From Enterobacteria phage KhF3, in sequence record KT184315.1: a stretch of 64,000 bases of DNA. One strand, given 5' to 3'. The stretch's first letter is position 1. The number at the start of each line of letters is the position of its first letter. The notes under the pieces were generated by a model that saw nothing but the letters and a program-made list of their open reading frames with translations, ran no database searches and was not told the origin of the DNA. Shown here piece after piece: positions 63 to 44,756 of this stretch. Both the position numbers and the translations under genes were made by a program.

Positions 63-308
63 CGGAGGCTCCTTTTTAAAAGGTCTTTAAACAGGGTCTT
101 TTAATAAGGTGCTGTTTTGTCCGGTATGGNGGNGTNNNGTGAGGTNTGGTTTGGTAAGGTAGGGTCTGGTATGGGTAGTTAGTCTCAGCTACATTAAAAT
201 GAGACTTACCTTTTTAAAAGGTCTTTAAAAGGGTCTTTTAACAAGGTATTGTATGGTGTAGTTTGGTTAGGTATGGTTAGGTGTGGTAAGGTAAGGTATG
301 GAAGGATG
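63..308. repeat. Duplicated ~100-bp unit: conserved ~45-bp segment followed by a degenerate pentamer (GGTNN)n array; copy 1 contains ambiguous bases
   Basis: Seen directly: TTTTAAAAGGTCTTTAAA(C/A)AGGGTCTTTTAA at 66-110 and 213-258; GGT-phased 5-mers at 121-180 (with N) and 246-308. Confidence 0.6.
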
Positions 309-3945: not shown

Positions 3946-4317
3946 TTATTTTTCAGTATTCTTTGTGTTCTTTTCAGTAATAGCTTGGAGGGCTGATACT
4001 GATTGAGCCAGATTGTTCACACTGTCAGAGAATTTATCAAGAGTTTTGGTAAGTTTTGCGTTTTCACCCTTAACATTCTCTAACTGAACTTTCTGGTTCT
4101 CCATCCCTAGCTGAATCAGTCTCATGTCAGACTGTAAATCACGAATAGCTGAATAGTTACTTTTGGAATAATTATCTAGCTGCTGCAACTTTGTTGTGAC
4201 AGACACTTCTTGCTTACCACTTGAAACTTGCATAGTGGTATACATCCCAATAACACTAAAAATACCAACAACAATTGCACCAATATTATTTTTAAAAGCT
4301 TCCTCTAGCCACTTCAT
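3946..4317 (-). CDS. Membrane-anchored coiled-coil protein (function unknown; holin-associated or spanin-like is possible)
   Basis: One N-terminal TM segment IGAIVVGIFSVIGMY then heptad-rich sequence; ATGA overlap with upstream gene. Confidence 0.45.
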   Translation of the reverse strand: MKWLEEAFKNNIGAIVVGIFSVIGMYTTMQVSSGKQEVSVTTKLQQLDNYSKSNYSAIRDLQSDMRLIQLGMENQKVQLENVKGENAKLTKTLDKFSDSVNNLAQSVSALQAITEKNTKNTEK

Positions 4318-4511
4318 TTATTCTCCCCCTTAAAAGCTTTTTCTAAGTTATCTACGAACTCATCATCAATAGGTGTGTCTGTTTTACTCGCAAGGTATCT
4401 TGCAAGCCTAAAGAACACTTTCTCAATCATGTATTCACTTAGAAGGGATAAAATGAGTTTCCAGAAGAAGCTACCTAGATTTTTTAGAAGAATTGCTAGG
4501 ATTGTAGGCAT
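4314..4511 (-). CDS. Small membrane protein (possible holin-like)
   Basis: 65 aa, hydrophobic N-terminal half, charged C-terminus. Confidence 0.35.
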   Translation of the reverse strand: MPTILAILLKNLGSFFWKLILSLLSEYMIEKVFFRLARYLASKTDTPIDDEFVDNLEKAFKGENK

Positions 4512-4590
4512 TTAATCACCTCATCAGCCAAGATGGTGAGAATACCCATAAAGAATATTAACACCATCTTAACAATCAGTCAACAAGGGA

Positions 4591-6975
4591 TTAAGCAGTT
4601 CTTACCCAAGCCATTAACTTGTAGAACTGGTTAGTAACACTGAATGCTGAACCAGAACCTGTACCACCAGTGTTACCACTAACTGTATGAGTGTGAGCAC
4701 CGATACCTACAGAGTGGGTGTGAGCACCAGTGTTACTTGTAGTACCAGACCATGTGTGTGTATGGTTACCAGTTGTGTTAGTGTTAGGGAATTTGTTATC
4801 TTTTCTATCAAGCCAGTCAAGAGTTCTTGTCTTGCTGTTGCTAACAGTTGTGTAACCATACTGAGCATCACCACCATTAACCAATAGCAGACCTAAGTGG
4901 TGAGCATGGTTACCCGCAGCACTTGTTGTACCACTTACAGTGTGGGTGTGACCACCAGTACTATTAGTGCTCTTCGTACCATAATCAAAAGATGAAGTGG
5001 TAGCAGAGAAGCTGTGAGTGTGTGATGGTAAGTTACCAACAGCTAATGTTACAGAATCTGAACCACCAGTTGTAGCAACATCTGAACCGTTAGCTGCTGC
5101 GATTCTGATAGTTCTACCAACACCATTGTTCAGGTACGTCCAAGTTAGACCAGGGAGTGCTGTATTAGGGTTAACATTACTGTTAAACCACGTTACAATA
5201 CCAACTGGATAGATTTTGTTAAGGTCTGTAGAGTCACTAATTGCTGTTGCAATTTTCTGGTCAGTTTCAGCTTTAGTGTATGCACCAATCTCTGAAGGGG
5301 TTGGTTTAAAATCAGTTGTGTAAAGCTGTGCCTCTCCGGCATAGTCACCATTTTTGTCATAGGCATAGGTAAATGTTGCCAGTCCATTTGAGCCATACAC
5401 AAAAGAGATTCCTCTTGCATGTGCAGCAGTCTTATTAGAGTGAGCAACATGAATTGCCAATTCTCTCAGTCCACTAGCAACCTGATTGTTTCTGACAAAA
5501 CCTGAATATCCAAGATTAAAACCTGAAGGGTTTTCAAGGTTATCTACAGAAACAGTCATTAAGGATTGGTTTAATAACTGAGTTTTAACAAAATATCTAG
5601 CATCTAAGTTAGACCAATCAGAAGGTTGAACTTGACCAGTAATGGTTAGGTTCTTATTAGCCTTAATCGCTGAAGGCATAAGAGTAATTTGAGTCCCAGA
5701 GTAGCTGTTGTTTAATGCCACATCAGTAGAATTTGTGCCACCCACACCTACCCACCACCTAGATACATTCTGGGTATCAACACCACGGATATATTGTGGC
5801 TGCCCCTGTGTTAAGTTTCTTAATACTACGCCTTCATTATTTGATACAATAGTTTGCACATTCACAAATGTGTTAGCAACATTAAGCTTAGGTAGGTTAC
5901 TCAAAGTTGCTGCCGGAATATATCTAGAGTCAATATTAGTCCAATCCGAAGGTTGAACTTGACCAGTGATTCTGAAGTTCTGGTTGACTGAGATATAGCC
6001 ATTATCAAGTCTGATATTTGAACCGTGTACATAGTTGTGTAGCAGCACAGAGGCTGTGTTATCCCCGTTCCCTACATACCACCTGTTAGTGTTCTGAGAG
6101 TCAACACCCTGAATGAATAGTGAGCTAGTTGTTGCATTTTTCAACCTTAAAGCAGCACTGTCACTGATAATAAGTAGGTTTCTGCTAAACGTGTTAGTGC
6201 CAGTGAAATTGTTATTCGCAGCTAACTGTGCAAATCTCTGATTAGCTACTGTCTGAGTAAAGTATCTAGCATCTAAGTTAGAGAAGTCAGAAGGTTGAAC
6301 TTGACCAGTGATTGCTAAAGACTTATTAACAGAGACATTACTTGCAACAGTCAAGGCTGAGTTGTATTTGTTATTGTACAGCTTTACTTCGTCAGAGCCA
6401 TTACTACCAATACCAACCCACCATCTAGCCGAGCCATCTAGGTTTACACCTTCGATATATTGTGCATTATTTGCATTTTGGTTTCTAAGGCGAAGTAAGT
6501 TAGCATCACCTTGAATATTTTGTGTTCCAGAGAATGTGTTTGTGATAGCTAGTCTTGCATACCTTGCATCATTCTCTTCATTAGTTCTCATCCCAAGTTC
6601 ATTAGGGCTTGGCTTATTCAGAGTATGATAAACAGTTGCCGACCTTGAAGTGTCTGCAATAGTCAGTTTAAGGCCATTTGCGTTGATTTTAAAAGTCTTT
6701 AAAACATCCCCAATAGTAACCTCAGAAGAGCCTGTTGGGTTAAAGACTACCTTACCACCATAAAGTAACTTAACAATCCCTAAATCACCCGTCATAGTAC
6801 TACCGGCAATCTGAACAAATCTTTCAAGTTTAAAAGATGCTAAGAAATCTTGATAGGTCATTCGACGGTCTTCATCACCTAGCATTTCAGGTCTCTTTTT
6901 AACCCTGACATGAAGAAGGTCATCTGAACGGATTGTATCGATTGAGTTTAATTCACTCAACTTGTAATCTGCCAT
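4591..6975 (-). CDS. Tail fiber protein (long)
   Basis: 794 aa; three internal ~100-aa repeats each ending ITGQVQPSDW/FxNxDxRY; C-terminal His-rich GNHTHT...GAHTHSVGIGAHTHTV motif shared with adjacent fiber. Confidence 0.75.
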   Translation of the reverse strand: MADYKLSELNSIDTIRSDDLLHVRVKKRPEMLGDEDRRMTYQDFLASFKLERFVQIAGSTMTGDLGIVKLLYGGKVVFNPTGSSEVTIGDVLKTFKINANGLKLTIADTSRSATVYHTLNKPSPNELGMRTNEENDARYARLAITNTFSGTQNIQGDANLLRLRNQNANNAQYIEGVNLDGSARWWVGIGSNGSDEVKLYNNKYNSALTVASNVSVNKSLAITGQVQPSDFSNLDARYFTQTVANQRFAQLAANNNFTGTNTFSRNLLIISDSAALRLKNATTSSLFIQGVDSQNTNRWYVGNGDNTASVLLHNYVHGSNIRLDNGYISVNQNFRITGQVQPSDWTNIDSRYIPAATLSNLPKLNVANTFVNVQTIVSNNEGVVLRNLTQGQPQYIRGVDTQNVSRWWVGVGGTNSTDVALNNSYSGTQITLMPSAIKANKNLTITGQVQPSDWSNLDARYFVKTQLLNQSLMTVSVDNLENPSGFNLGYSGFVRNNQVASGLRELAIHVAHSNKTAAHARGISFVYGSNGLATFTYAYDKNGDYAGEAQLYTTDFKPTPSEIGAYTKAETDQKIATAISDSTDLNKIYPVGIVTWFNSNVNPNTALPGLTWTYLNNGVGRTIRIAAANGSDVATTGGSDSVTLAVGNLPSHTHSFSATTSSFDYGTKSTNSTGGHTHTVSGTTSAAGNHAHHLGLLLVNGGDAQYGYTTVSNSKTRTLDWLDRKDNKFPNTNTTGNHTHTWSGTTSNTGAHTHSVGIGAHTHTVSGNTGGTGSGSAFSVTNQFYKLMAWVRTA

Positions 6976-25892: not shown

Positions 25893-27509
25893 TCAACGTC
25901 TAAGCCCCTCATACGGGTTTCCTCTCACTAAATCTGTGTGAGCACCCATTGATGGTGGCTTGAATAATTTAACTTCGTTAAGACTGTTGAAAGCATCACT
26001 GGTAGCATCCACTTGGTCATCTTTAGTTTTGCCGTCACCACAAAAACCTTCAAGTTCTTGAAAGTAAGCTTCATTCCAACTACCTCTCAAGACTTTTACA
26101 AGTCCAGCTTCAGAAGCAGCAGAAAATCCCGCAAAGCGGGTAACTTTATCTTTATTTGTTGGTTTGGCTCTTGCTCGATAACCTTTCTCGGCAAGTTTCC
26201 TGATTAGGGATGTTGCGTAGGATTTACCAGCAGCGCCTGGGTCTTGAGGGATAAAAATACCAGTTCGCTTACCGTCACTTTCAGCAGTCAAATTAATTTG
26301 TGTTTCGACTCCAGAGGGTCTATCTCTAAATCTTACTACATCAATGATATAATAGCAACCGTCTTTTTTAGATTTACCCATCTTAACACCTGCTGTCCAG
26401 TCTGGATTAGGGTTAATCTCAGATGGTAAAGTTGCTGCTAAGTCCCATGCTCTAACATCGAATACATCTTCTGGGAGTGAATCAACAATCTCACACCATT
26501 GTCTTTGCCAATAGTTTGAACCTTCTGCACGAGCCTTCCAGTTACCGAAACGAAGTCTTGCAACGTTTACAGGGGTGTTGTTTTCCAACTTACCACGGTA
26601 CTTAGGCTCTAAGAAGTCAAGGATTGGGTTATCATCAATCGTACCAGAGATGAATGTATATGTTTGAGGAATCTCAAGAGGAAACATTTCAAGAATCTTG
26701 TCTCTCTCCCAATCAGAAACCATAACACCATCATTCATTACATACCAACGAATACGACCACACTTTTCAGGGTCTGGGTAGCCTTCTTCATCTAAGAATG
26801 GTTCTACCCAATCGTAAATAAAGTGGTCTCTGTCTGGGTTCATAGAAATCTTCATGTATGAATCACCTTCAGCCCCAGAACGTAGACGAGTCTGTAGGTA
26901 TGAAATCTGTGAAGCAGAGAAGTGTGTACCTTCGTCAAAGTAAATAGCTGAGTATTCAATACCCTGATGACCTTCAGCGTGCTTTTCAAGTTCTAGATAG
27001 GTAAACTTGATAGTTGCCCCAGAAGGGAATGTGATAGTCATCTTCTGCTCGTGAGGAACCCCACCAAACTTACCAAATAGTTTCTTTGCAGCAGGCCATA
27101 AACCACCTTGTAACTGTGTTGTATTTCGACGGAAATATACAGCATTATAGTTAGGGTCTTCAATAAACCTTAAAGAGTCCATTAACAATGCAGCAGTCTT
27201 ACCAGCACCCGCAGCACCACCATAGAGAACCAAGTCAGCATTAGTATTTAAAAAGACCTCTTGAGAACCCGGCTGAGGGGCTACATAGTTCTTATCAGTC
27301 ATCAATTTGAAGATAAGTCTAACTTGGTCTGGTGTGTATCTTAATAAAGTCAGAATTTGAGTTGGAAGGAATTTAGAGGGGTCTTTACCGAATGATTTGA
27401 TAATTTCTTTTACTTCATCAGAAAGCCCCAACTCTCCAGCTAGGACTTTCCTAACATCTTCCACTCGCTTCTGCTTAACAGCATTTAAGTCCATTAAGCA
27501 CCTCCGCAA
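25893..27509 (-). CDS. Terminase large subunit
   Basis: Walker A LYGGAAGAGKT; 538 aa; ATPase plus nuclease architecture. Confidence 0.85.
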   Translation of the reverse strand: MRRCLMDLNAVKQKRVEDVRKVLAGELGLSDEVKEIIKSFGKDPSKFLPTQILTLLRYTPDQVRLIFKLMTDKNYVAPQPGSQEVFLNTNADLVLYGGAAGAGKTAALLMDSLRFIEDPNYNAVYFRRNTTQLQGGLWPAAKKLFGKFGGVPHEQKMTITFPSGATIKFTYLELEKHAEGHQGIEYSAIYFDEGTHFSASQISYLQTRLRSGAEGDSYMKISMNPDRDHFIYDWVEPFLDEEGYPDPEKCGRIRWYVMNDGVMVSDWERDKILEMFPLEIPQTYTFISGTIDDNPILDFLEPKYRGKLENNTPVNVARLRFGNWKARAEGSNYWQRQWCEIVDSLPEDVFDVRAWDLAATLPSEINPNPDWTAGVKMGKSKKDGCYYIIDVVRFRDRPSGVETQINLTAESDGKRTGIFIPQDPGAAGKSYATSLIRKLAEKGYRARAKPTNKDKVTRFAGFSAASEAGLVKVLRGSWNEAYFQELEGFCGDGKTKDDQVDATSDAFNSLNEVKLFKPPSMGAHTDLVRGNPYEGLRR

Positions 27510-27515
27510 ATAGAA

Positions 27516-27716
27516 TTATTCAGAGTCTGTAGCAGTCTCTTCTTTCTTAACTTCGAACTTTGCATCAACAGCATCAAGAAGTGCATCCATAGATGCTTCT
27601 TTAATATCAATGCCTGTTGCTACAGATAATCTGTCTGCAATTGCCATGATAGTATTCTGCATAAATTCTAGCTTCTTGTTAGCTTCATAAAGTTCTTTAT
27701 AAACGGTCTCGCTCAT
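27516..27716 (-). CDS. Hypothetical protein
   Basis: 66 aa ORF upstream of terminase; GGAGA RBS. Confidence 0.4.
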   Translation of the reverse strand: MSETVYKELYEANKKLEFMQNTIMAIADRLSVATGIDIKEASMDALLDAVDAKFEVKKEETATDSE

Positions 27717-42062: not shown

Positions 42063-42516
42063 AGAAGTAGTGCAAAGAGCAATGCTTGACAATTCTACTA
42101 AAGATGAGATGTACACAGAAATTTGTGATAAGTTGAACTGCTCAAGACATGCTGCTAAGGTTCTTGTACACTGTTTTATCTGGGAATGCTCAGAAGCTTA
42201 TATGAAACACGTAGCTTTTGAGAGTTCTCATTTACTCGGTGATGCAAAAATAGGTGTAGCACTAAAAGAGCCTGAGATGAAAACAGTACCTAAAGTTGGT
42301 AATGTGTATAAACTAAAAAATTTTATTACAGGCGAGATTGTTGCAGAAGGTGAAGTGCAACAGGTTTATCATGATGGTAAATATCTGTTTAAGATATTCG
42401 AGTATGATAGTCGTTACAGACACTTATGTGGTATTACATTTTTAGTTTCAGAGGATGACCTCATCAAGAACAATAGTAATAAATTCGCAGTACCAGAATA
42501 TCAAGTTTTACGATAA
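42052..42516 (+). CDS. Hypothetical protein
   Basis: 154 aa. Confidence 0.45.
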   Translation: MKIKEVVQRAMLDNSTKDEMYTEICDKLNCSRHAAKVLVHCFIWECSEAYMKHVAFESSHLLGDAKIGVALKEPEMKTVPKVGNVYKLKNFITGEIVAEGEVQQVYHDGKYLFKIFEYDSRYRHLCGITFLVSEDDLIKNNSNKFAVPEYQVLR

Positions 42517-42529
42517 TGGTGTGATAGAT

Positions 42530-43078
42530 ATGGAAAAAGATAACTTAAAAGAAGTTGAAGGTAACTACTTAGTACTTGACTGGAAGGATGTTCGGGAAGC
42601 ACTCTCCGAAGAAAATCTTGACTGGTTCGAACAAATTATCTTTGCAGTACGGCATAACCGAGAAGTTGAAAATGGTAAAGAGCCACTTGAAGGAATCTTT
42701 GTAGAAAGGTCTTATCCATTCTATGAAGACACTTTGCAGAAAGTTAAGATGTACTTTAAACAGAAGAACCGTAAAGTGGTCACTATGGTATCTCTTGGTG
42801 GACAGAGTATGTCTGTGATGGAAGATATCAACCCTAAGAGACCGAGTAAAGGTGTTTGTATAAAAATCACAGGACATGAAGAGTATATCTCAGTGGCTGA
42901 CTTTAGTGCATTCTGTAGTGGTTCTTGTGTCTTTAATGGTTTTCACTATGATATCCGAGTGTACCCAATCAAGGGAGATGCTGTTATGATGCAGATATTC
43001 GATAACAATAATGGATTTACTCATTTTTATCAGACAACTAAGTCATCCCTAAAAACAGTTCTGGAAACACTGATTTAA
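42530..43078 (+). CDS. Hypothetical protein (start uncertain; track start 42455)
   Basis: First ATG after upstream stop; 182 aa. Confidence 0.4.
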   Translation: MEKDNLKEVEGNYLVLDWKDVREALSEENLDWFEQIIFAVRHNREVENGKEPLEGIFVERSYPFYEDTLQKVKMYFKQKNRKVVTMVSLGGQSMSVMEDINPKRPSKGVCIKITGHEEYISVADFSAFCSGSCVFNGFHYDIRVYPIKGDAVMMQIFDNNNGFTHFYQTTKSSLKTVLETLI

Positions 43079-43087
43079 AATATCTTA

Positions 43088-43114
43088 AGAGCCTCCTTAA
43101 TTGGGGGCTTTTTA
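43088..43114 (+). terminator. Rho-independent terminator ending plus-strand operon
   Basis: AGCCTCC-TTAATT-GGGGGCT followed by TTTTT. Confidence 0.6.
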
Positions 43115-43199
43115 TTGAGTAAAATTTACGAAATTTATATTTTTTATAAAATTTTATCGGTTGTTCCAACCTCTGGGTCACCATCATATGTGAACAAAA

Positions 43200-44300
43200 T
43201 ATCTATCCTTCTTAACAGCCTTCTTAATCTTATTCTCTATATAGTTATATAGTACTATATAGTATCTTAGTAACTATCTAGTGGTCTTAATAGCCCTCTG
43301 TATAGCCCTTCTAAATAGCCCTCTAAACACTCTTCTAACAAGCCTTCTTAACAACCTATACAATCACCTTAACCATCTCTCTACACTCTCTTAGAAGCTC
43401 CTATACACCTCTTAATCTCTATGTCAGCTATGATACTCTCTATAGGTGTTCACTAGGTGCTACTAAGCCTCTATATAGACTGTTTTAACAAACTTAACAG
43501 GAATATCTTTACAGACCTTATCTCACAAGGTCTAACACGGTACTAACAAGGTATCTTATAAGCCTGTTATTACCTGTATTTTAGAAAGACTGTATAGGTA
43601 ATTATTCAGATTTTTAAAATTTTTATAAAATAGGACTATCAAGTCATTTTTTAGGGTCTTTGAAGGAACTGAAAAATATCTGTAGAAGATGTATATCTGC
43701 TTGGTAGCCCTTAACATCCCTGTAACATCCCCTTTGCAAAATTTTAAAATATCCTTAACAATCTCTTAACAGTTCTCACATCTTCTTAATAACTCTTCAA
43801 AGTTCTTAACAGATTCTTAACAGAACTAACAAGGGCTTAACAGTTTTCTAACAAGTGCTGAATAGACTTTACAGAATCTTAACAGATTCCTAACAAGAGC
43901 TCAGTAGTTAAATGTTAAGAGTTATTTTGTTAAGATAATTAACAAGTTTCTAACAAGTGTTTAATCTTTTTAACAAGCTATTAACATGGTCACTACTCTT
44001 TTCTTATCGTTCCCTTTCCTTTCTTAGTGATTCCTTAAACATACCTCTTAAAAGCTCTGTATAGCTCTGTATAACCCCTTTTAAGCCTCTTCCTAGTAAT
44101 TACACCCCAACTATACAGATACCTCTTTATAGGGCTTTACAGGGGCTTTAAAGGCTATGTCAAAGGTTCTTACAAGGCTTTTACGTGGTTTTAACAGAGA
44201 TTTAACAAGGGGCTAACAAGTCTCTAACAAGTGCCTTAAAAGCATAACTATGTAGGGATTGTTAAGAAATTGTTAAGAAAATGTTAAGGGGGCTAGCATT
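43200..44300. repeat. Iteron array: more than 30 copies of (C)TTAACAG / CTAACAAG, several runs phased at about 11 bp; no ORF in any frame
   Basis: Examples: 43805-43858 five consecutive copies; 44191-44232 four copies; 44259-44289 three copies in inverse orientation (TGTTAAG). Confidence 0.75.
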
Positions 44301-44693
44301 TACGTAACTTTTAAGCAACTTTGAAGTAACTTTATAACCCCTATAACATACTTTTCAGTTACTATCAAGGGGCTTGTTTAGTAGTTCACAAGATAGCTAA
44401 CGAGATAATAAAACTTACACCCTTATAAGATTCTTTTAAGGTTCTAGGAAGCTTTATAAAGGGCTTTTTAGAGCAGGTTAATATGATTGCTTAAGTTAGG
44501 TTGATAAGGCTGTTATAGAGCTTTATAGAGCGTTTTAGTGGTTGCCCTTCCCTTTCGGGTTATGGGCTTATATTTAAGTTGATTTGATAAGAAGATATAG
44601 AGTAGACTATAGAGTTATTGCTTTTAAGGTCTGGTAAGATTCTAACTTGTTAGGGGAGTCTGGGAAGATTCTGGGAAGGGATTGGATAGACGT

Positions 44694-44746
44694 AAAAAAG
44701 CCCCTATGAGAAGGAGCTTTTCAGGTATCTGGGGCTAAATAGCCCC
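44694..44746 (-). terminator. Candidate terminator hairpins at end of early minus-strand gene array
   Basis: GGGGCTAAATAGCCCC at 44731-44746; second hairpin plus A-run at 44694-44722. Confidence 0.4.
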
Positions 44747-44756
44747 GTTGCGTCGA

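What the first reader, a model, noticed from the sequence alone, without database searches (positions are those of the whole stretch)
43116..44700. ORF-free 1.6-kb block packed with helically phased TTAACA-type iterons
No ORF of 60 aa or more in six frames across about 1.6 kb of an otherwise tightly packed genome. It carries more than 30 copies of (C)TTAACAG / CTAACAAG. Several runs are spaced about 11 bp apart (43805-43858 five copies; 44191-44232 four copies; 44259-44289 three inverted copies). The block lies exactly where the plus-strand operon ending at 43078 and the minus-strand early array ending at 44757 converge. One-helical-turn phasing suggests cooperative binding of a sequence-specific protein on one DNA face: a replication origin, partition/centromere-like site, or a silencer/sink for a host or phage regulator.
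Basis: seen in the sequence. Interest (0 to 1): 0.85.

Follow-up and report, generated by a model that had tools for sequence, protein, structure and literature searches.

The report
Phage genome-end repeat packed with phased motifs
The gene-free 1.6-kb block is the place where the linear genome of a Felix O1-type phage begins and ends: a roughly 591-bp terminal repeat densely packed with a conserved 6-bp motif spaced one DNA turn apart, most likely a landing pad for the machinery that cuts and packages the genome rather than a replication origin.

Summary
Block 43079-44756 has no ORF longer than 53 aa, and none is conserved. It has 35 TAACA/TGTTA cores against 5.3±2.2 in shuffles, and 14 neighbour spacings of exactly 11 bp against about 0.02.

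The window is a Felixounavirus genome.
- Window 43703-44293 (591 bp) matches the direct terminal repeat (DTR) that two related GenBank records (E9, SPJ41) carry at both ends.
- UAB_69 annotates the same segment as a DTR.
- A DTR of this size was shown experimentally in UAB_Phi87 (608 bp).

Twenty-four of the 35 cores lie inside the DTR. An inverted element, GCCC(CC)TTAACAT, sits at both boundaries.

Cores are 96% conserved against 84% for the DTR overall. They persist in Erwinia phages whose DNA barely aligns. DTR lengths among relatives step by 11 bp.

Best reading: a concatemer-junction and packaging region like the T7 terminal repeat with its flanking arrays. The phased motifs would be the assembly scaffold for an unidentified recognition protein working with the terminase.

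The origin, partition and regulator-sink readings are not excluded, but nothing specific supports them. The motif pairs do have PhoP-box geometry, which is a lead only.

The DTR was already known. The motif architecture appears undescribed. Interest is moderate.

The parts
43093..43117 (+). Intrinsic terminator that ends the plus-strand operon (last ORF 42455-43078).
   Evidence: Terminator scan. The same site is annotated as a terminator in KhF2 and Mordin.
43118..43702 (.). Left unique arm of the concatemer junction. In the virion it lies just inside the right-end copy of the terminal repeat. It is CT-rich, with mini-arrays CTATATAGTA (43237-43282), TCTAAATAGCCC (43285-43327) and ACAAGGTACTA (43525-43553), and AT-rich palindromic stretches at about 43109-43160 and 43599-43632.
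   Evidence: TRF, CTNNNNAG map, AT-richness, palindrome I16. No conserved ORF.
43684..43717 (.). Left boundary island GATGTATATCTGCTT|GGTAGCCCTTAACAT. The repeat starts at 43703 (43701 by the UAB_69 annotation). The inward-pointing element GCCCTTAACAT lies at 43707-43717.
   Evidence: Nearly invariant in 12 sequences from three annotated genera plus one unclassified record; a single substitution, in pEC-M719. Recognisable in phiEa104. The ends of records E9 and SPJ41 fall here.
43703..44293 (.). Predicted direct terminal repeat (DTR), 591 bp. It is present once here because the window is in junction or circularised form.
   Evidence: E9 and SPJ41 carry this segment (580 and 613 bp, identical copies) at both record ends. 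At least seven further records start or end at a boundary. The DTR annotated in UAB_69 maps to 43701-44295. A 608-bp DTR was shown in UAB_Phi87 by Bal31 digestion and run-off sequencing (PMC4837284).
43712..43986 (+). Forward-oriented YTAACA arrays in the left half of the DTR: 15 forward cores in pairs or runs at 11 bp, plus two inverted cores at 43913 and 43928. The densest part is 43754-43895.
   Evidence: Core list. TRF finds an 11-bp unit CTTAACAGATT x13.6. Core conservation.
43990..44190 (.). Central DTR segment with no TAACA cores. It carries other phased arrays: AGCTCTGTAT (44053-44073) and GGGCTTTAAAG (44125-44154).
44192..44229 (+). Four-copy forward array, (T/C)TAACA(A/G)G at exact 11-bp spacing.
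44258..44293 (-). Three inverted copies (TGTTAAG at 11 bp) running into the right DTR boundary. The element ATGTTAAGGGGGC (44281-44293) is the reverse complement of GCCCCCTTAACAT, the inverted partner of the left boundary element.
   Evidence: (ATTGTTAAGAA x2.8, 95% matches). Kolesnikvirus records Hena2 and L041 start at the homologous point, right after inverted copies.
44294..44693 (.). Right unique arm of the junction. In the virion it lies just inside the left-end DTR copy. Its mini-arrays are AACTTTGAAGC (44306-44333), CTTATAAGATT (44422-44445), TTATAGAGCT (44513-44531) and CTGGGAAG x2 (44660-44678).
   Evidence: Repeat-unit indels among relatives.
44694..44746 (-). Tandem hairpins with a U-run that terminate the minus-strand gene array (last ORF 44757-45005).
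   Evidence: RNA fold -28.5 kcal/mol, z=-5.4.
25893..27509 (-). Large terminase subunit, the enzyme expected to cut at the DTR boundaries.
   Evidence: phrog_979 E=1e-233; Pfam Terminase_6N and Terminase_6C.
27516..27716 (-). 66-aa ORF lying 6 nt upstream of the large terminase gene. It is an untested candidate for the missing small or recognition subunit.
   Evidence: phrog_4397, unknown function, no Pfam hit. Annotated as 'hypothetical protein' or 'unknown', or left unannotated, in every row listed of 256 phage records. Only near-identical homologues were found.

Best explanation
The block is the concatemer junction, i.e. the genome-terminus region, of a Felix O1-type myovirus.

Shown or taken from the literature:
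- Window 43703-44293 corresponds to the ~0.6-kb direct terminal repeat (DTR) found at both ends of related virion genomes.
- It is flanked by two unique non-coding arms into which both neighbouring operons terminate.

Inferred mechanism:
1. Replication gives head-to-tail concatemers with one DTR copy per junction.
2. A sequence-specific recognition protein loads head-to-tail on the 11-bp-phased YTAACA arrays that fill the DTR. This protein is unidentified. It could be a small-terminase-like partner of the large terminase TerL, and the 66-aa ORF just upstream of TerL is one candidate.
3. This positions the nuclease at the two boundary elements GCCC(CC)TTAACAT, which face each other in inverted orientation.
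4. Cuts on opposite strands at the two boundaries, followed by strand-displacement synthesis, duplicate the repeat so that every packaged genome carries a full copy at each end. This is the model proposed for T7/T3.

After infection the repeats allow re-concatenation. The other 10-12-bp arrays in the arms probably give further low-specificity contacts or shape the DNA.

My confidence that this is the terminus and DTR region is about 0.9. My confidence that the arrays serve end recognition and packaging is about 0.45.
For: DTR mapping:
- Records E9 (its announcement reports PhageTerm direct terminal repeats for all six phages described) and SPJ41 begin and end with identical 580- and 613-bp copies. 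These map to window 43703-44293, and the terminal sequences match the window apart from one or two substitutions.
- ZX4221, CRP22, NBEco004, NBEco005, EcSzw_1, GE_vB_7A and GE_vB_B1 also start or end at these points.
- The 618-bp feature annotated as DTR in UAB_69 maps to 43701-44295.
- Bal31 digestion plus run-off sequencing showed a 608-bp DTR in UAB_Phi87 (PMC4837284).
- The Felix O1 paper inferred short terminal repeats (PMC3185647).

Motifs tied to the DTR:
- 24 of the 35 cores lie in the DTR: 41/kb against 3.5/kb elsewhere.
- The first core is 9 bp inside the left boundary. The last three are inverted and end 7 bp inside the right boundary.
- The two boundaries share the inverted element GCCC(CC)TTAACAT. 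They are the most conserved islands across Felixounavirus, Suspvirus and Mooglevirus.

Selection on the motif:
- TAACA columns are 95.7% conserved against 84.2% overall. In the five most divergent relatives (Suspvirus, Mooglevirus and one unclassified record) the figures are 93.3% and 76.6%. P<0.0002.
- The same architecture is present in the Erwinia phage phiEa104, where only 76 bp align. It has 31 cores, TCTTAACA x12 and 11-bp spacing x8. Kolesnikvirus records start right after the inverted copies.
- DTR lengths in 40 of 44 relatives fall within ±1 bp of 591+11k.

Other support:
- No conserved ORF and no Rfam match.
- A comparable layout was read directly in T7: CCTAAAG heptamers inside the first 160 bp and 13-bp-period arrays at 174-340.
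- TerL is present, and no small subunit is annotated in the E9 record.
Against: - No binding or cleavage data exist for any Felix O1-type phage, and the recognition protein is unidentified.
- The 66-aa candidate has no recognisable DNA-binding domain.
- The ends of this particular isolate are inferred by homology and were not measured.
- Some record ends in the database are assembly artefacts. NJ12 and PC79-13 have ~126-127-bp overlaps at other positions.
- The published or annotated boundaries differ by 2 bp at each end.
- The cut lies 4 nt outside the left element but flush with the right one, so the symmetry is imperfect.
- Tandem-repeat slippage alone would give an 11-bp length ladder.
- Aligning repeat arrays inflates core conservation somewhat.
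- The function of the analogous T7 arrays is itself unresolved (from memory).
Confidence: 0.5

Rival explanations
1. Replication origin. The YTAACA arrays are iterons for a phage or host initiator, which melts a nearby AT-rich stretch.
For: - Many phased direct repeats.
- AT-rich segments at about 43109-43160 and 43599-43632.
- This is the largest non-coding region of a compact genome.
- T7 has promoter-type secondary origins next to its terminal arrays (phiOL at 405; their origin role is from memory).
Against: - No DnaA box (only 1-mismatch hits to a relaxed pattern) and no IHF consensus.
- No initiator-like gene among the flanking ORFs or in the E9 annotation.
- The AT-rich stretches lie 50-550 bp away from the arrays, outside the DTR.
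- The arrays coincide with the DTR and bracket its cut sites.
- Transcription converges on the block.
- The units are 11 bp with a 6-bp core, shorter than typical 17-22-bp iterons.
Confidence: 0.15
2. Binding array for a winged-helix response regulator or another non-packaging protein. One version: host PhoP-P binds the TGTTAA-N5-TGTTAA pairs. The DTR then acts as a sink, as a sensor of host state, or as an architectural or end-protecting nucleoprotein cap.
For: - The geometry is exactly a hexamer direct repeat with a 5-nt spacer. The half-site TGTTAA(G) occurs in footprinted PhoP boxes such as pagP (PMC3335776).
- A PWM built from 32 footprinted boxes scores the DTR pairs at 43754, 43805 and 44259 at 13.2-13.6 bits, the top quartile of real boxes. 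That is 8.5 hits/kb in the DTR against 0.30/kb in the window.
- The core is the same in phages of Escherichia, Salmonella, Shigella, Citrobacter and Erwinia.
- Unrelated viral contigs carry similar direct-plus-inverted TTAACA-N5 triplets.
- The PhageMaP preprint states that the related phage Bas63 lacks a RecBCD inhibitor. End protection is therefore an open question.
Against: - Both half-sites deviate from (T/G)GTTTA at the same position. Real boxes usually keep one canonical half.
- The PWM is AT-rich and of low specificity; equal or better hits occur inside coding regions.
- Repeats of any TGTT-containing unit at 11 bp would score similarly.
- There are no binding data.
- This reading does not explain why the arrays coincide with the DTR boundaries.
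Confidence: 0.15
3. No sequence-specific function. The arrays are a by-product of replication slippage and recombination in a non-coding terminal region. Only the boundary cut sites and the repeat length are selected.
For: - The DTR length ladder in 11-bp steps and the unit indels among relatives show ongoing slippage.
- Several different motif families share the 10-12-bp period.
- There is no long-range phase coherence.
Against: - Core columns are much more conserved than spacers, and random 5-mer sets never reach the observed value.
- The same 6-bp core survives in Kolesnikvirus, where the surrounding DNA is not alignable.
- The orientation pattern (forward run, then terminal inverted copies) is shared between genera.
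Confidence: 0.08
4. Partition (centromere-like) site, or a hidden gene or non-coding RNA.
For: Repeat arrays resemble parS/parC-type centromeres in form only.
Against: - This is a virulent-type genome with no ParA/ParB, integrase or repressor module in the E9 annotation.
- No ORF is conserved.
- No Rfam family reaches threshold; the best E-values are 0.2-0.3 at the flanking terminators.
Confidence: 0.02

Closest known systems
Direct terminal repeat of Felix O1-type phages (UAB_Phi87 608 bp; also Felix O1 and FO1a)
   Same: It is the same element by homology. It has the same position between the same converging operons and the same boundary sequences, and the DTR annotated in UAB_69 maps to 43701-44295.
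   Different: The papers I could read give the existence and length of the repeat, and note an unexplained 'gene 40-41 intergenic region'. I found no description of the phased YTAACA arrays, the inverted boundary elements, the 11-bp length ladder or the conservation in Kolesnikvirus. The library searched is incomplete.
Phage T7 concatemer junction: 160-bp terminal repeat plus the SRL/SRR short-repeat arrays
   Same: Both have a short exact terminal repeat at fixed ends, with more than ten copies of a short motif inside and next to it at roughly one-helical-turn spacing. In T7, CCTAAAG occurs at 17, 41 and 59, and 13-bp-period arrays lie at 174-245 and 282-340. Both are non-coding. The repeat is duplicated during concatemer processing (T7 model, from memory).
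   Different: - The motif differs (YTAACA against CCTAAAG).
- The period is 11 bp against 13 bp.
- Here most copies lie inside the repeat; in T7 most lie outside.
- The repeat is about four times longer here.
- Inverted copies sit at the far boundary here.
- The host phage is a myovirus with a T4-type large terminase, not a T7-type podovirus.
- No promoter equivalent to T7 phiOL/phiOR was identified; there are only weak consensus matches.
Terminase recognition sites built from repeated short elements (lambda cosB R sites, SPP1 pacL/pacR boxes, P1 pac hexamers)
   Same: Multiple copies of a short element flank the terminase cut site and are thought to assemble an oligomeric small subunit on phased or bent DNA (from memory).
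   Different: Those sites span roughly 100-200 bp with 3-7 elements and belong to cos or headful systems. Here there are 24 cores over 591 bp in an exact-DTR system, and no small subunit is known.
Iteron-type replication origins (lambda ori, plasmid oriV)
   Same: Phased direct repeats in non-coding DNA, with AT-rich tracts in the vicinity.
   Different: There are no DnaA boxes or IHF sites, no adjacent initiator gene, a shorter unit, and coincidence with the genome ends.
PhoP box / OmpR-PhoB-family tandem sites
   Same: A hexamer direct repeat with a 5-nt spacer, giving an 11-bp period and head-to-tail binding (PMC3335776). The DTR pairs score like real boxes with a PWM built from footprinted sites.
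   Different: The half-site is TGTTAA/TGTTAG, not (T/G)GTTTA. There are long arrays rather than one or two boxes. They are not positioned relative to a promoter. Binding is untested.

Membership tests
Short exact direct terminal repeat (fixed-end, T7-type genome termini) | The same sequence is present at both ends of the virion DNA. | tested here: met
   Met by homology, not on this isolate. E9 and SPJ41 carry identical 580- and 613-bp copies at both record ends, mapping to window 43703-44293. UAB_69 annotates the DTR.
Short exact direct terminal repeat (fixed-end, T7-type genome termini) | Ends are unique, not circularly permuted and not cohesive. | not testable with these tools
   Literature only. 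Bal31 degrades two specific fragments, heating produces no cos effect, and run-off sequencing drops off in UAB_Phi87 (PMC4837284). At least nine database records start or end at the same two points.
Short exact direct terminal repeat (fixed-end, T7-type genome termini) | The large terminase groups with DTR-forming terminases. | not tested
   TerL is identified (T4-type Terminase_6N/6C). The clustering with a Felix O1-like DTR group is taken from PMC4837284 and was not recomputed.
T7-like terminal short-repeat arrays (SRL/SRR) | More than ten copies of a 6-7-bp motif in or next to the terminal repeat, in non-coding DNA. | tested here: met
   There are 24 cores in the DTR and 11 in the arms. The T7 left end was read for comparison.
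T7-like terminal short-repeat arrays (SRL/SRR) | Sequence homology of the motif or array to T7. | tested here: not met
   The motif (YTAACA against CCTAAAG), the period (11 against 13 bp) and the placement all differ. The likeness is in architecture only.
Iteron replication origin | DnaA boxes and/or IHF sites next to the iterons. | tested here: not met
   No TTATCCACA within one mismatch. There are only three 1-mismatch hits to TTATNCACA. No WATCARNNNNTTR.
Iteron replication origin | An AT-rich unwinding element directly adjacent to the repeats. | tested here: inconclusive
   The AT-richest 40-mers lie at 43109-43160, and a palindromic AT tract lies at 43599-43632. Both are outside the DTR and not contiguous with the main arrays.
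Iteron replication origin | A cognate initiator protein is encoded, and initiation maps here. | not testable with these tools
   No initiator is annotated in E9. The flanking ORFs have unknown function. Initiation mapping needs experiments.
Partition centromere (parS/parC) | Partner ParA/ParB-type genes and a plasmid or prophage lifestyle. | tested here: not met
   No such genes appear in the full annotation of the related phage E9. The weak HTH_ParB hit of ORF 1016-1315 is below the Pfam cut-off and lies under a stronger HTH_3 hit.
PhoP box | [quoted passage not shown] | tested here: met
   TGTTAA-N5-TGTTAA-N5-TGTTAA at 44260-44287, and many forward pairs. The definition is from PMC3335776.
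PhoP box | Half-site sequence (T/G)GTTTA, and binding of PhoP-P. | tested here: inconclusive
   Each half-site matches 5 of 6 positions. PWM scores of 10-13.6 bits lie within the range of footprinted boxes (leave-one-out median 10.6), but the PWM is weakly specific. Binding is not testable here.

The most novel reading that the evidence does not exclude
The terminal repeat is a multi-site array for an OmpR/PhoB-type winged-helix protein. Most provocatively, that protein is the host regulator PhoP: the phage would carry about ten PhoP-box-like pairs on each genome end. It would then either use a host envelope-stress regulator as the architectural factor for end recognition and protection, or titrate it during infection. 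PhoP controls LPS remodelling, and LPS is the Felix O1 receptor. Similar direct-plus-inverted TTAACA-N5 triplets in unrelated viral contigs would then mark a wider, undescribed phage-host interface.
Probability: 0.08. Interest if true: 0.8.

Novelty: new variant of a known kind. Interest (0 to 1): 0.45.

Why it matters
Felix O1-type phages are classic Salmonella typing phages and are common in therapeutic cocktails. How they recognise and cut their genome ends is unknown, and no small terminase subunit is annotated in the related records examined.

This analysis gives a precise, testable map:
- two inverted boundary elements at the cut sites;
- 24 conserved, phased 6-bp cores filling the repeat;
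- a candidate 66-aa partner gene next to the large terminase.

The map is useful in three ways:
- It gives a correct starting coordinate for annotating hundreds of database genomes, most of which are opened arbitrarily.
- It guides phage engineering, since inserts or deletions here should respect the 11-bp units and the boundary elements.
- It offers a second system, beside T7, for asking what terminal short-repeat arrays do.

It also corrects the tempting 'iterons = origin' reading.

Tried and rejected
- **Hidden gene.** All five short ORFs are broken by stops or frameshifts in relatives. Rejected.
- **Structured RNA.** No Rfam match at gathering threshold, and only two chance-level hits at the flanking terminators at E≤1. 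Rejected.
- **Long-range helical coherence of the clusters.** The periodograms are barely above background, and a cluster-shift null gives P=0.24. The phasing is local only.
- **Second TAACA-rich locus at 4200-5300.** It lies inside a 794-aa ORF and has no 11-bp spacing. Coding artefact.
- **Chi sites guarding the ends.** There is only one Chi in the window, far from the block.
- **Promoters in the block.** There are only 9/12 consensus matches, not above the shuffle expectation.
- **Identity of the recognition protein.** The 66-aa ORF upstream of TerL has no Pfam hit, belongs to a PHROG of unknown function, is annotated as hypothetical or not at all in the phage records listed, and has only near-identical homologues. 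Unresolved. I did not run structure prediction because a single short helical sequence was unlikely to be informative.
- **More distant relative, Yersinia phage P778.** It has a non-coding region of at least 1.2 kb with degenerate TAACA/TAAACA/TGTAAAG motifs but no neat arrays in the part I read. Inconclusive.
- **Unrelated IMG/VR contigs with TTAACA-N5 triplets.** Neighbouring ORFs gave one sub-threshold DnaJ hit and nothing informative. Left open.
- **Literature.** Searches for a prior description of the motif or of the block's function found nothing. The PhageMaP preprint on the related phage Bas63 has no mention of this region in the passages retrieved.
Full report
**What the window is.** The block 43080-44760 matches 256 phage records, almost all of them Felix O1-type myoviruses (Ounavirinae). 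The best match is Escherichia virus TH10 at 95.5%. The window carries 26 tRNA genes. Its gene order matches Felixounavirus genomes. The block corresponds to the unexplained 'gene 40-41 intergenic region' of the Felix O1 genome paper. That paper also inferred short terminal repeats from pulsed-field sizing (PMC3185647).

**Checking the observation.** The block has no ORF above 53 aa. None of its five short ORFs is intact across 11 relatives. No Rfam family matches it.

The strict octamers occur 15 times, plus five inverted heptamers. The 5-bp core TAACA/TGTTA occurs 35 times in 1678 bp. Dinucleotide-preserving shuffles give 5.3±2.2, with a maximum of 12 in 2000. The rest of the window has 3.5 per kb.

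Fourteen neighbour spacings are exactly 11 bp. The expectation is 0.02 from shuffles and 0.7 for random placement of 35 sites.

The two flanking operons do converge. Terminators lie at 43093-43117 and 44694-44746.

Two refinements follow:
- The phasing is local. Clusters are not in phase with each other (P=0.24), and whole-block periodograms are barely above background.
- The TTAACA family is only the most prominent of many. Tandem Repeats Finder reports 17 overlapping rows, all but two with periods of 10-12 bp, built from different units. The generalised octamer CTNNNNAG occurs 66 times, 39/kb against 9.6/kb elsewhere.

**What it is.** The decisive finding came from where related database records begin and end.
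- Many records break inside the block at the same two points.
- Phage E9 starts at window 44293 and ends at 43703. Its announcement reports PhageTerm direct terminal repeats for the six phages it describes.
- Phage SPJ41 starts at 43703 and ends at 44293.
- Each of these two records carries identical copies (580 and 613 bp) at both ends. Their terminal sequences match the window apart from one or two substitutions: GGTAGCCCTTAACAT... at the start and ...ATGTTAAGGGGGC at the end.
- ZX4221, CRP22, NBEco004, NBEco005, EcSzw_1, GE_vB_7A and GE_vB_B1 also start or end there.
- The UAB_69 record annotates a 618-bp 'DTR' that maps to 43701-44295.
- For its sibling UAB_Phi87, a 608-bp direct terminal repeat was demonstrated by Bal31 digestion and run-off sequencing (PMC4837284).

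So window 43703-44293 (591 bp, ±2 bp) is the terminal repeat. It is present once because the window is in junction form. The stretches 43118-43702 and 44294-44693 are the unique arms that adjoin the right-end and left-end copies in the virion.

A caveat: some record ends elsewhere in the block are assembly overlaps of about 126-127 bp (NJ12, PC79-13). The ends of this isolate itself were not measured.

**Anatomy relative to the repeat.** Twenty-four of the 35 cores lie inside the repeat, 41/kb. Nineteen are forward, in pairs or runs at 11 bp. Two inverted cores lie near the middle. The last three are inverted copies running into the right boundary.

Read inward from either end, the repeat begins with the same element:
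- GCCCTTAACAT at 43707-43717;
- GCCCCCTTAACAT, the reverse complement of 44281-44293.

The boundaries are therefore an imperfect inverted repeat. The left cut lies 4 nt outside its element. The right cut is flush with its element, or 2 nt outside by the UAB_69 annotation.

Both boundary islands are almost invariant in 12 sequences from Felixounavirus, Suspvirus and Mooglevirus.

**Evidence for function.** Within the repeat, TAACA columns are 95.7% conserved, against 84.2% for the repeat overall. For the five most divergent relatives the figures are 93.3% and 76.6%. Random sets of 24 pentamers never reach the observed value. The conserved unit is the hexamer YTAACA; the following G is not conserved. 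Aligning repeats inflates this somewhat.

An alignment-free argument exists as well. In the Erwinia phage phiEa104 (Kolesnikvirus) only 76 bp of the repeat can be aligned. Yet the equivalent 1.4-kb non-coding block between converging operons has these features:
- 31 cores, with TCTTAACA twelve times and 11-bp spacing eight times;
- a recognisable left boundary sequence;
- inverted copies directly before the point where the Kolesnikvirus records Hena2 and L041 start.

Among 44 relatives with full-length matches, 40 have repeat lengths within ±1 bp of 591+11k, from 558 to 651 bp. The repeat therefore grows and shrinks by whole units.

**Most likely mechanism.** It is shown, here or in the literature, that this is the terminus and DTR region, that the arrays fill the repeat and bracket its ends, and that they are selected.

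It is inferred that a sequence-specific protein binds head-to-tail on the 11-bp-phased hexamers. It would position the large terminase (25893-27509, T4-type Terminase_6N/6C) at the two inverted boundary elements. Opposite-strand cuts plus strand-displacement synthesis would then duplicate the repeat, as proposed for T7/T3 (from memory).

No small terminase subunit is annotated in the E9 record or over the 66-aa ORF in the records listed. The 66-aa ORF 6 nt upstream of the large subunit (27516-27716) is a positional candidate. It has no recognisable DNA-binding domain and only near-identical homologues.

**Rivals.**
- *Origin.* Repeats and AT-rich tracts are present. But there are no DnaA boxes or IHF sites and no initiator gene. 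The AT tracts lie outside the repeat, and nothing in this reading explains the coincidence with the cut sites.
- *Non-packaging binding protein.* The pairs have exactly the geometry of enterobacterial PhoP boxes, a hexamer direct repeat with a 5-nt spacer (PMC3335776). TGTTAAG is a half-site in footprinted boxes. A PWM from 32 footprinted boxes scores three pairs at 13.2-13.6 bits, the top quartile of real boxes. That gives 8.5 hits/kb in the repeat against 0.30/kb in the window. The PWM is weakly specific, however, and both half-sites deviate at the same position. I treat this as a lead.
- *Neutral slippage.* It explains the length ladder but not the core conservation or the persistence across genera.
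- *Partition, hidden gene or RNA.* Effectively excluded.

**Comparison with known systems.** By homology this element is the Felix O1-type DTR, which is already known.

Architecturally the closest described system is the T7 concatemer junction. Reading the T7 left end directly, CCTAAAG occurs three times within the first 160 bp, and 13-bp-period arrays follow at 174-245 and 282-340. The differences are the motif, the period, the placement (mostly inside the repeat here), the size of the repeat, the inverted boundary copies and the phage type.

I found no paper describing the motif arrays in Ounavirinae. The library is incomplete, so this is absence of evidence only.

**Verdict.** The feature is a new variant of a known kind, namely short-repeat arrays associated with a terminal repeat. 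Interest is moderate. It gives a concrete, testable map for an unknown packaging-recognition system in a widely used phage group, but the underlying DTR was already known.

Noticed in passing
window 1-64000: GATC is completely absent: 0 sites against about 214 expected from a trinucleotide Markov model. Many 6-bp palindromes are also absent (GAATTC, ATGCAT and AGATCT are each 0 against about 21 expected). CCGG and GGCC are about half the expected count. This is strong avoidance of restriction and Dam sites across the genome.
   Followed up: partly
window 27516-27716 (minus strand): A 66-aa acidic, helical-looking ORF ends 6 nt before the start of the large terminase gene. It is conserved in 256 Ounavirinae records and is annotated as 'hypothetical protein' or 'unknown', or left unannotated, in every row listed. 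It belongs to PHROG 4397 (unknown function) and has no Pfam hit. It is a possible small-terminase or recognition subunit.
   Followed up: partly
L046 8673-8835; L080 7330-7530; L073 596-760 / L096 4380-4560: Unrelated IMG/VR viral contigs carry a direct TTAACA-N5 triplet and an inverted TGTTAA-N5 triplet roughly 50-130 bp apart in intergenic DNA. In L046 the two flank a terminator. In L080 they lie upstream of a TTGACA-type promoter-like site. Neighbouring ORFs gave one sub-threshold DnaJ hit and nothing informative. This may point to a widespread binding-protein family.
   Followed up: partly
window 4200-5300: A secondary peak of TAACA/TGTTA density lies inside a 794-aa minus-strand ORF (4591-6975) with repetitive sequence. 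There is no 11-bp spacing. It is a coding-sequence effect, not a second array.
   Followed up: yes
L013 2039-3467 (Erwinia phage phiEa104): The right arm of the Kolesnikvirus junction uses a different phased motif, (C)TTAGAAG, with TTAGAA counted 12 times. The Felixounavirus arms use CTTTTAAG, CTTTGAAG and CTATATAG types. The arm arrays therefore turn over between genera, while the YTAACA core inside the repeat is kept.
   Followed up: partly
window 130-146: There are six ambiguous bases (N) at 130, 133, 136-138 and 146, which is unusual in a finished phage genome.
   Followed up: no
L004/L005 (PC79-13) and L009/L010 (NJ12): These records end inside the block with overlaps of about 126-127 bp (PC79-13 annotates the two 127-bp copies as repeat_region). 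They look like assembler k-mer overlaps rather than true terminal repeats. This is a caution for anyone inferring ends from database records.
   Followed up: partly
L027 1-1180 (Yersinia phage vB_YenM_P778, record end): This distant relative has a homologue of the 66-aa ORF at 39% identity. It also has a stretch of at least 1.2 kb without a credible gene (only three annotated ORFs under 50 aa), containing degenerate TAACA, TAAACA and TGTAAAG motifs. Clean 11-bp arrays are absent in the part examined.
   Followed up: partly
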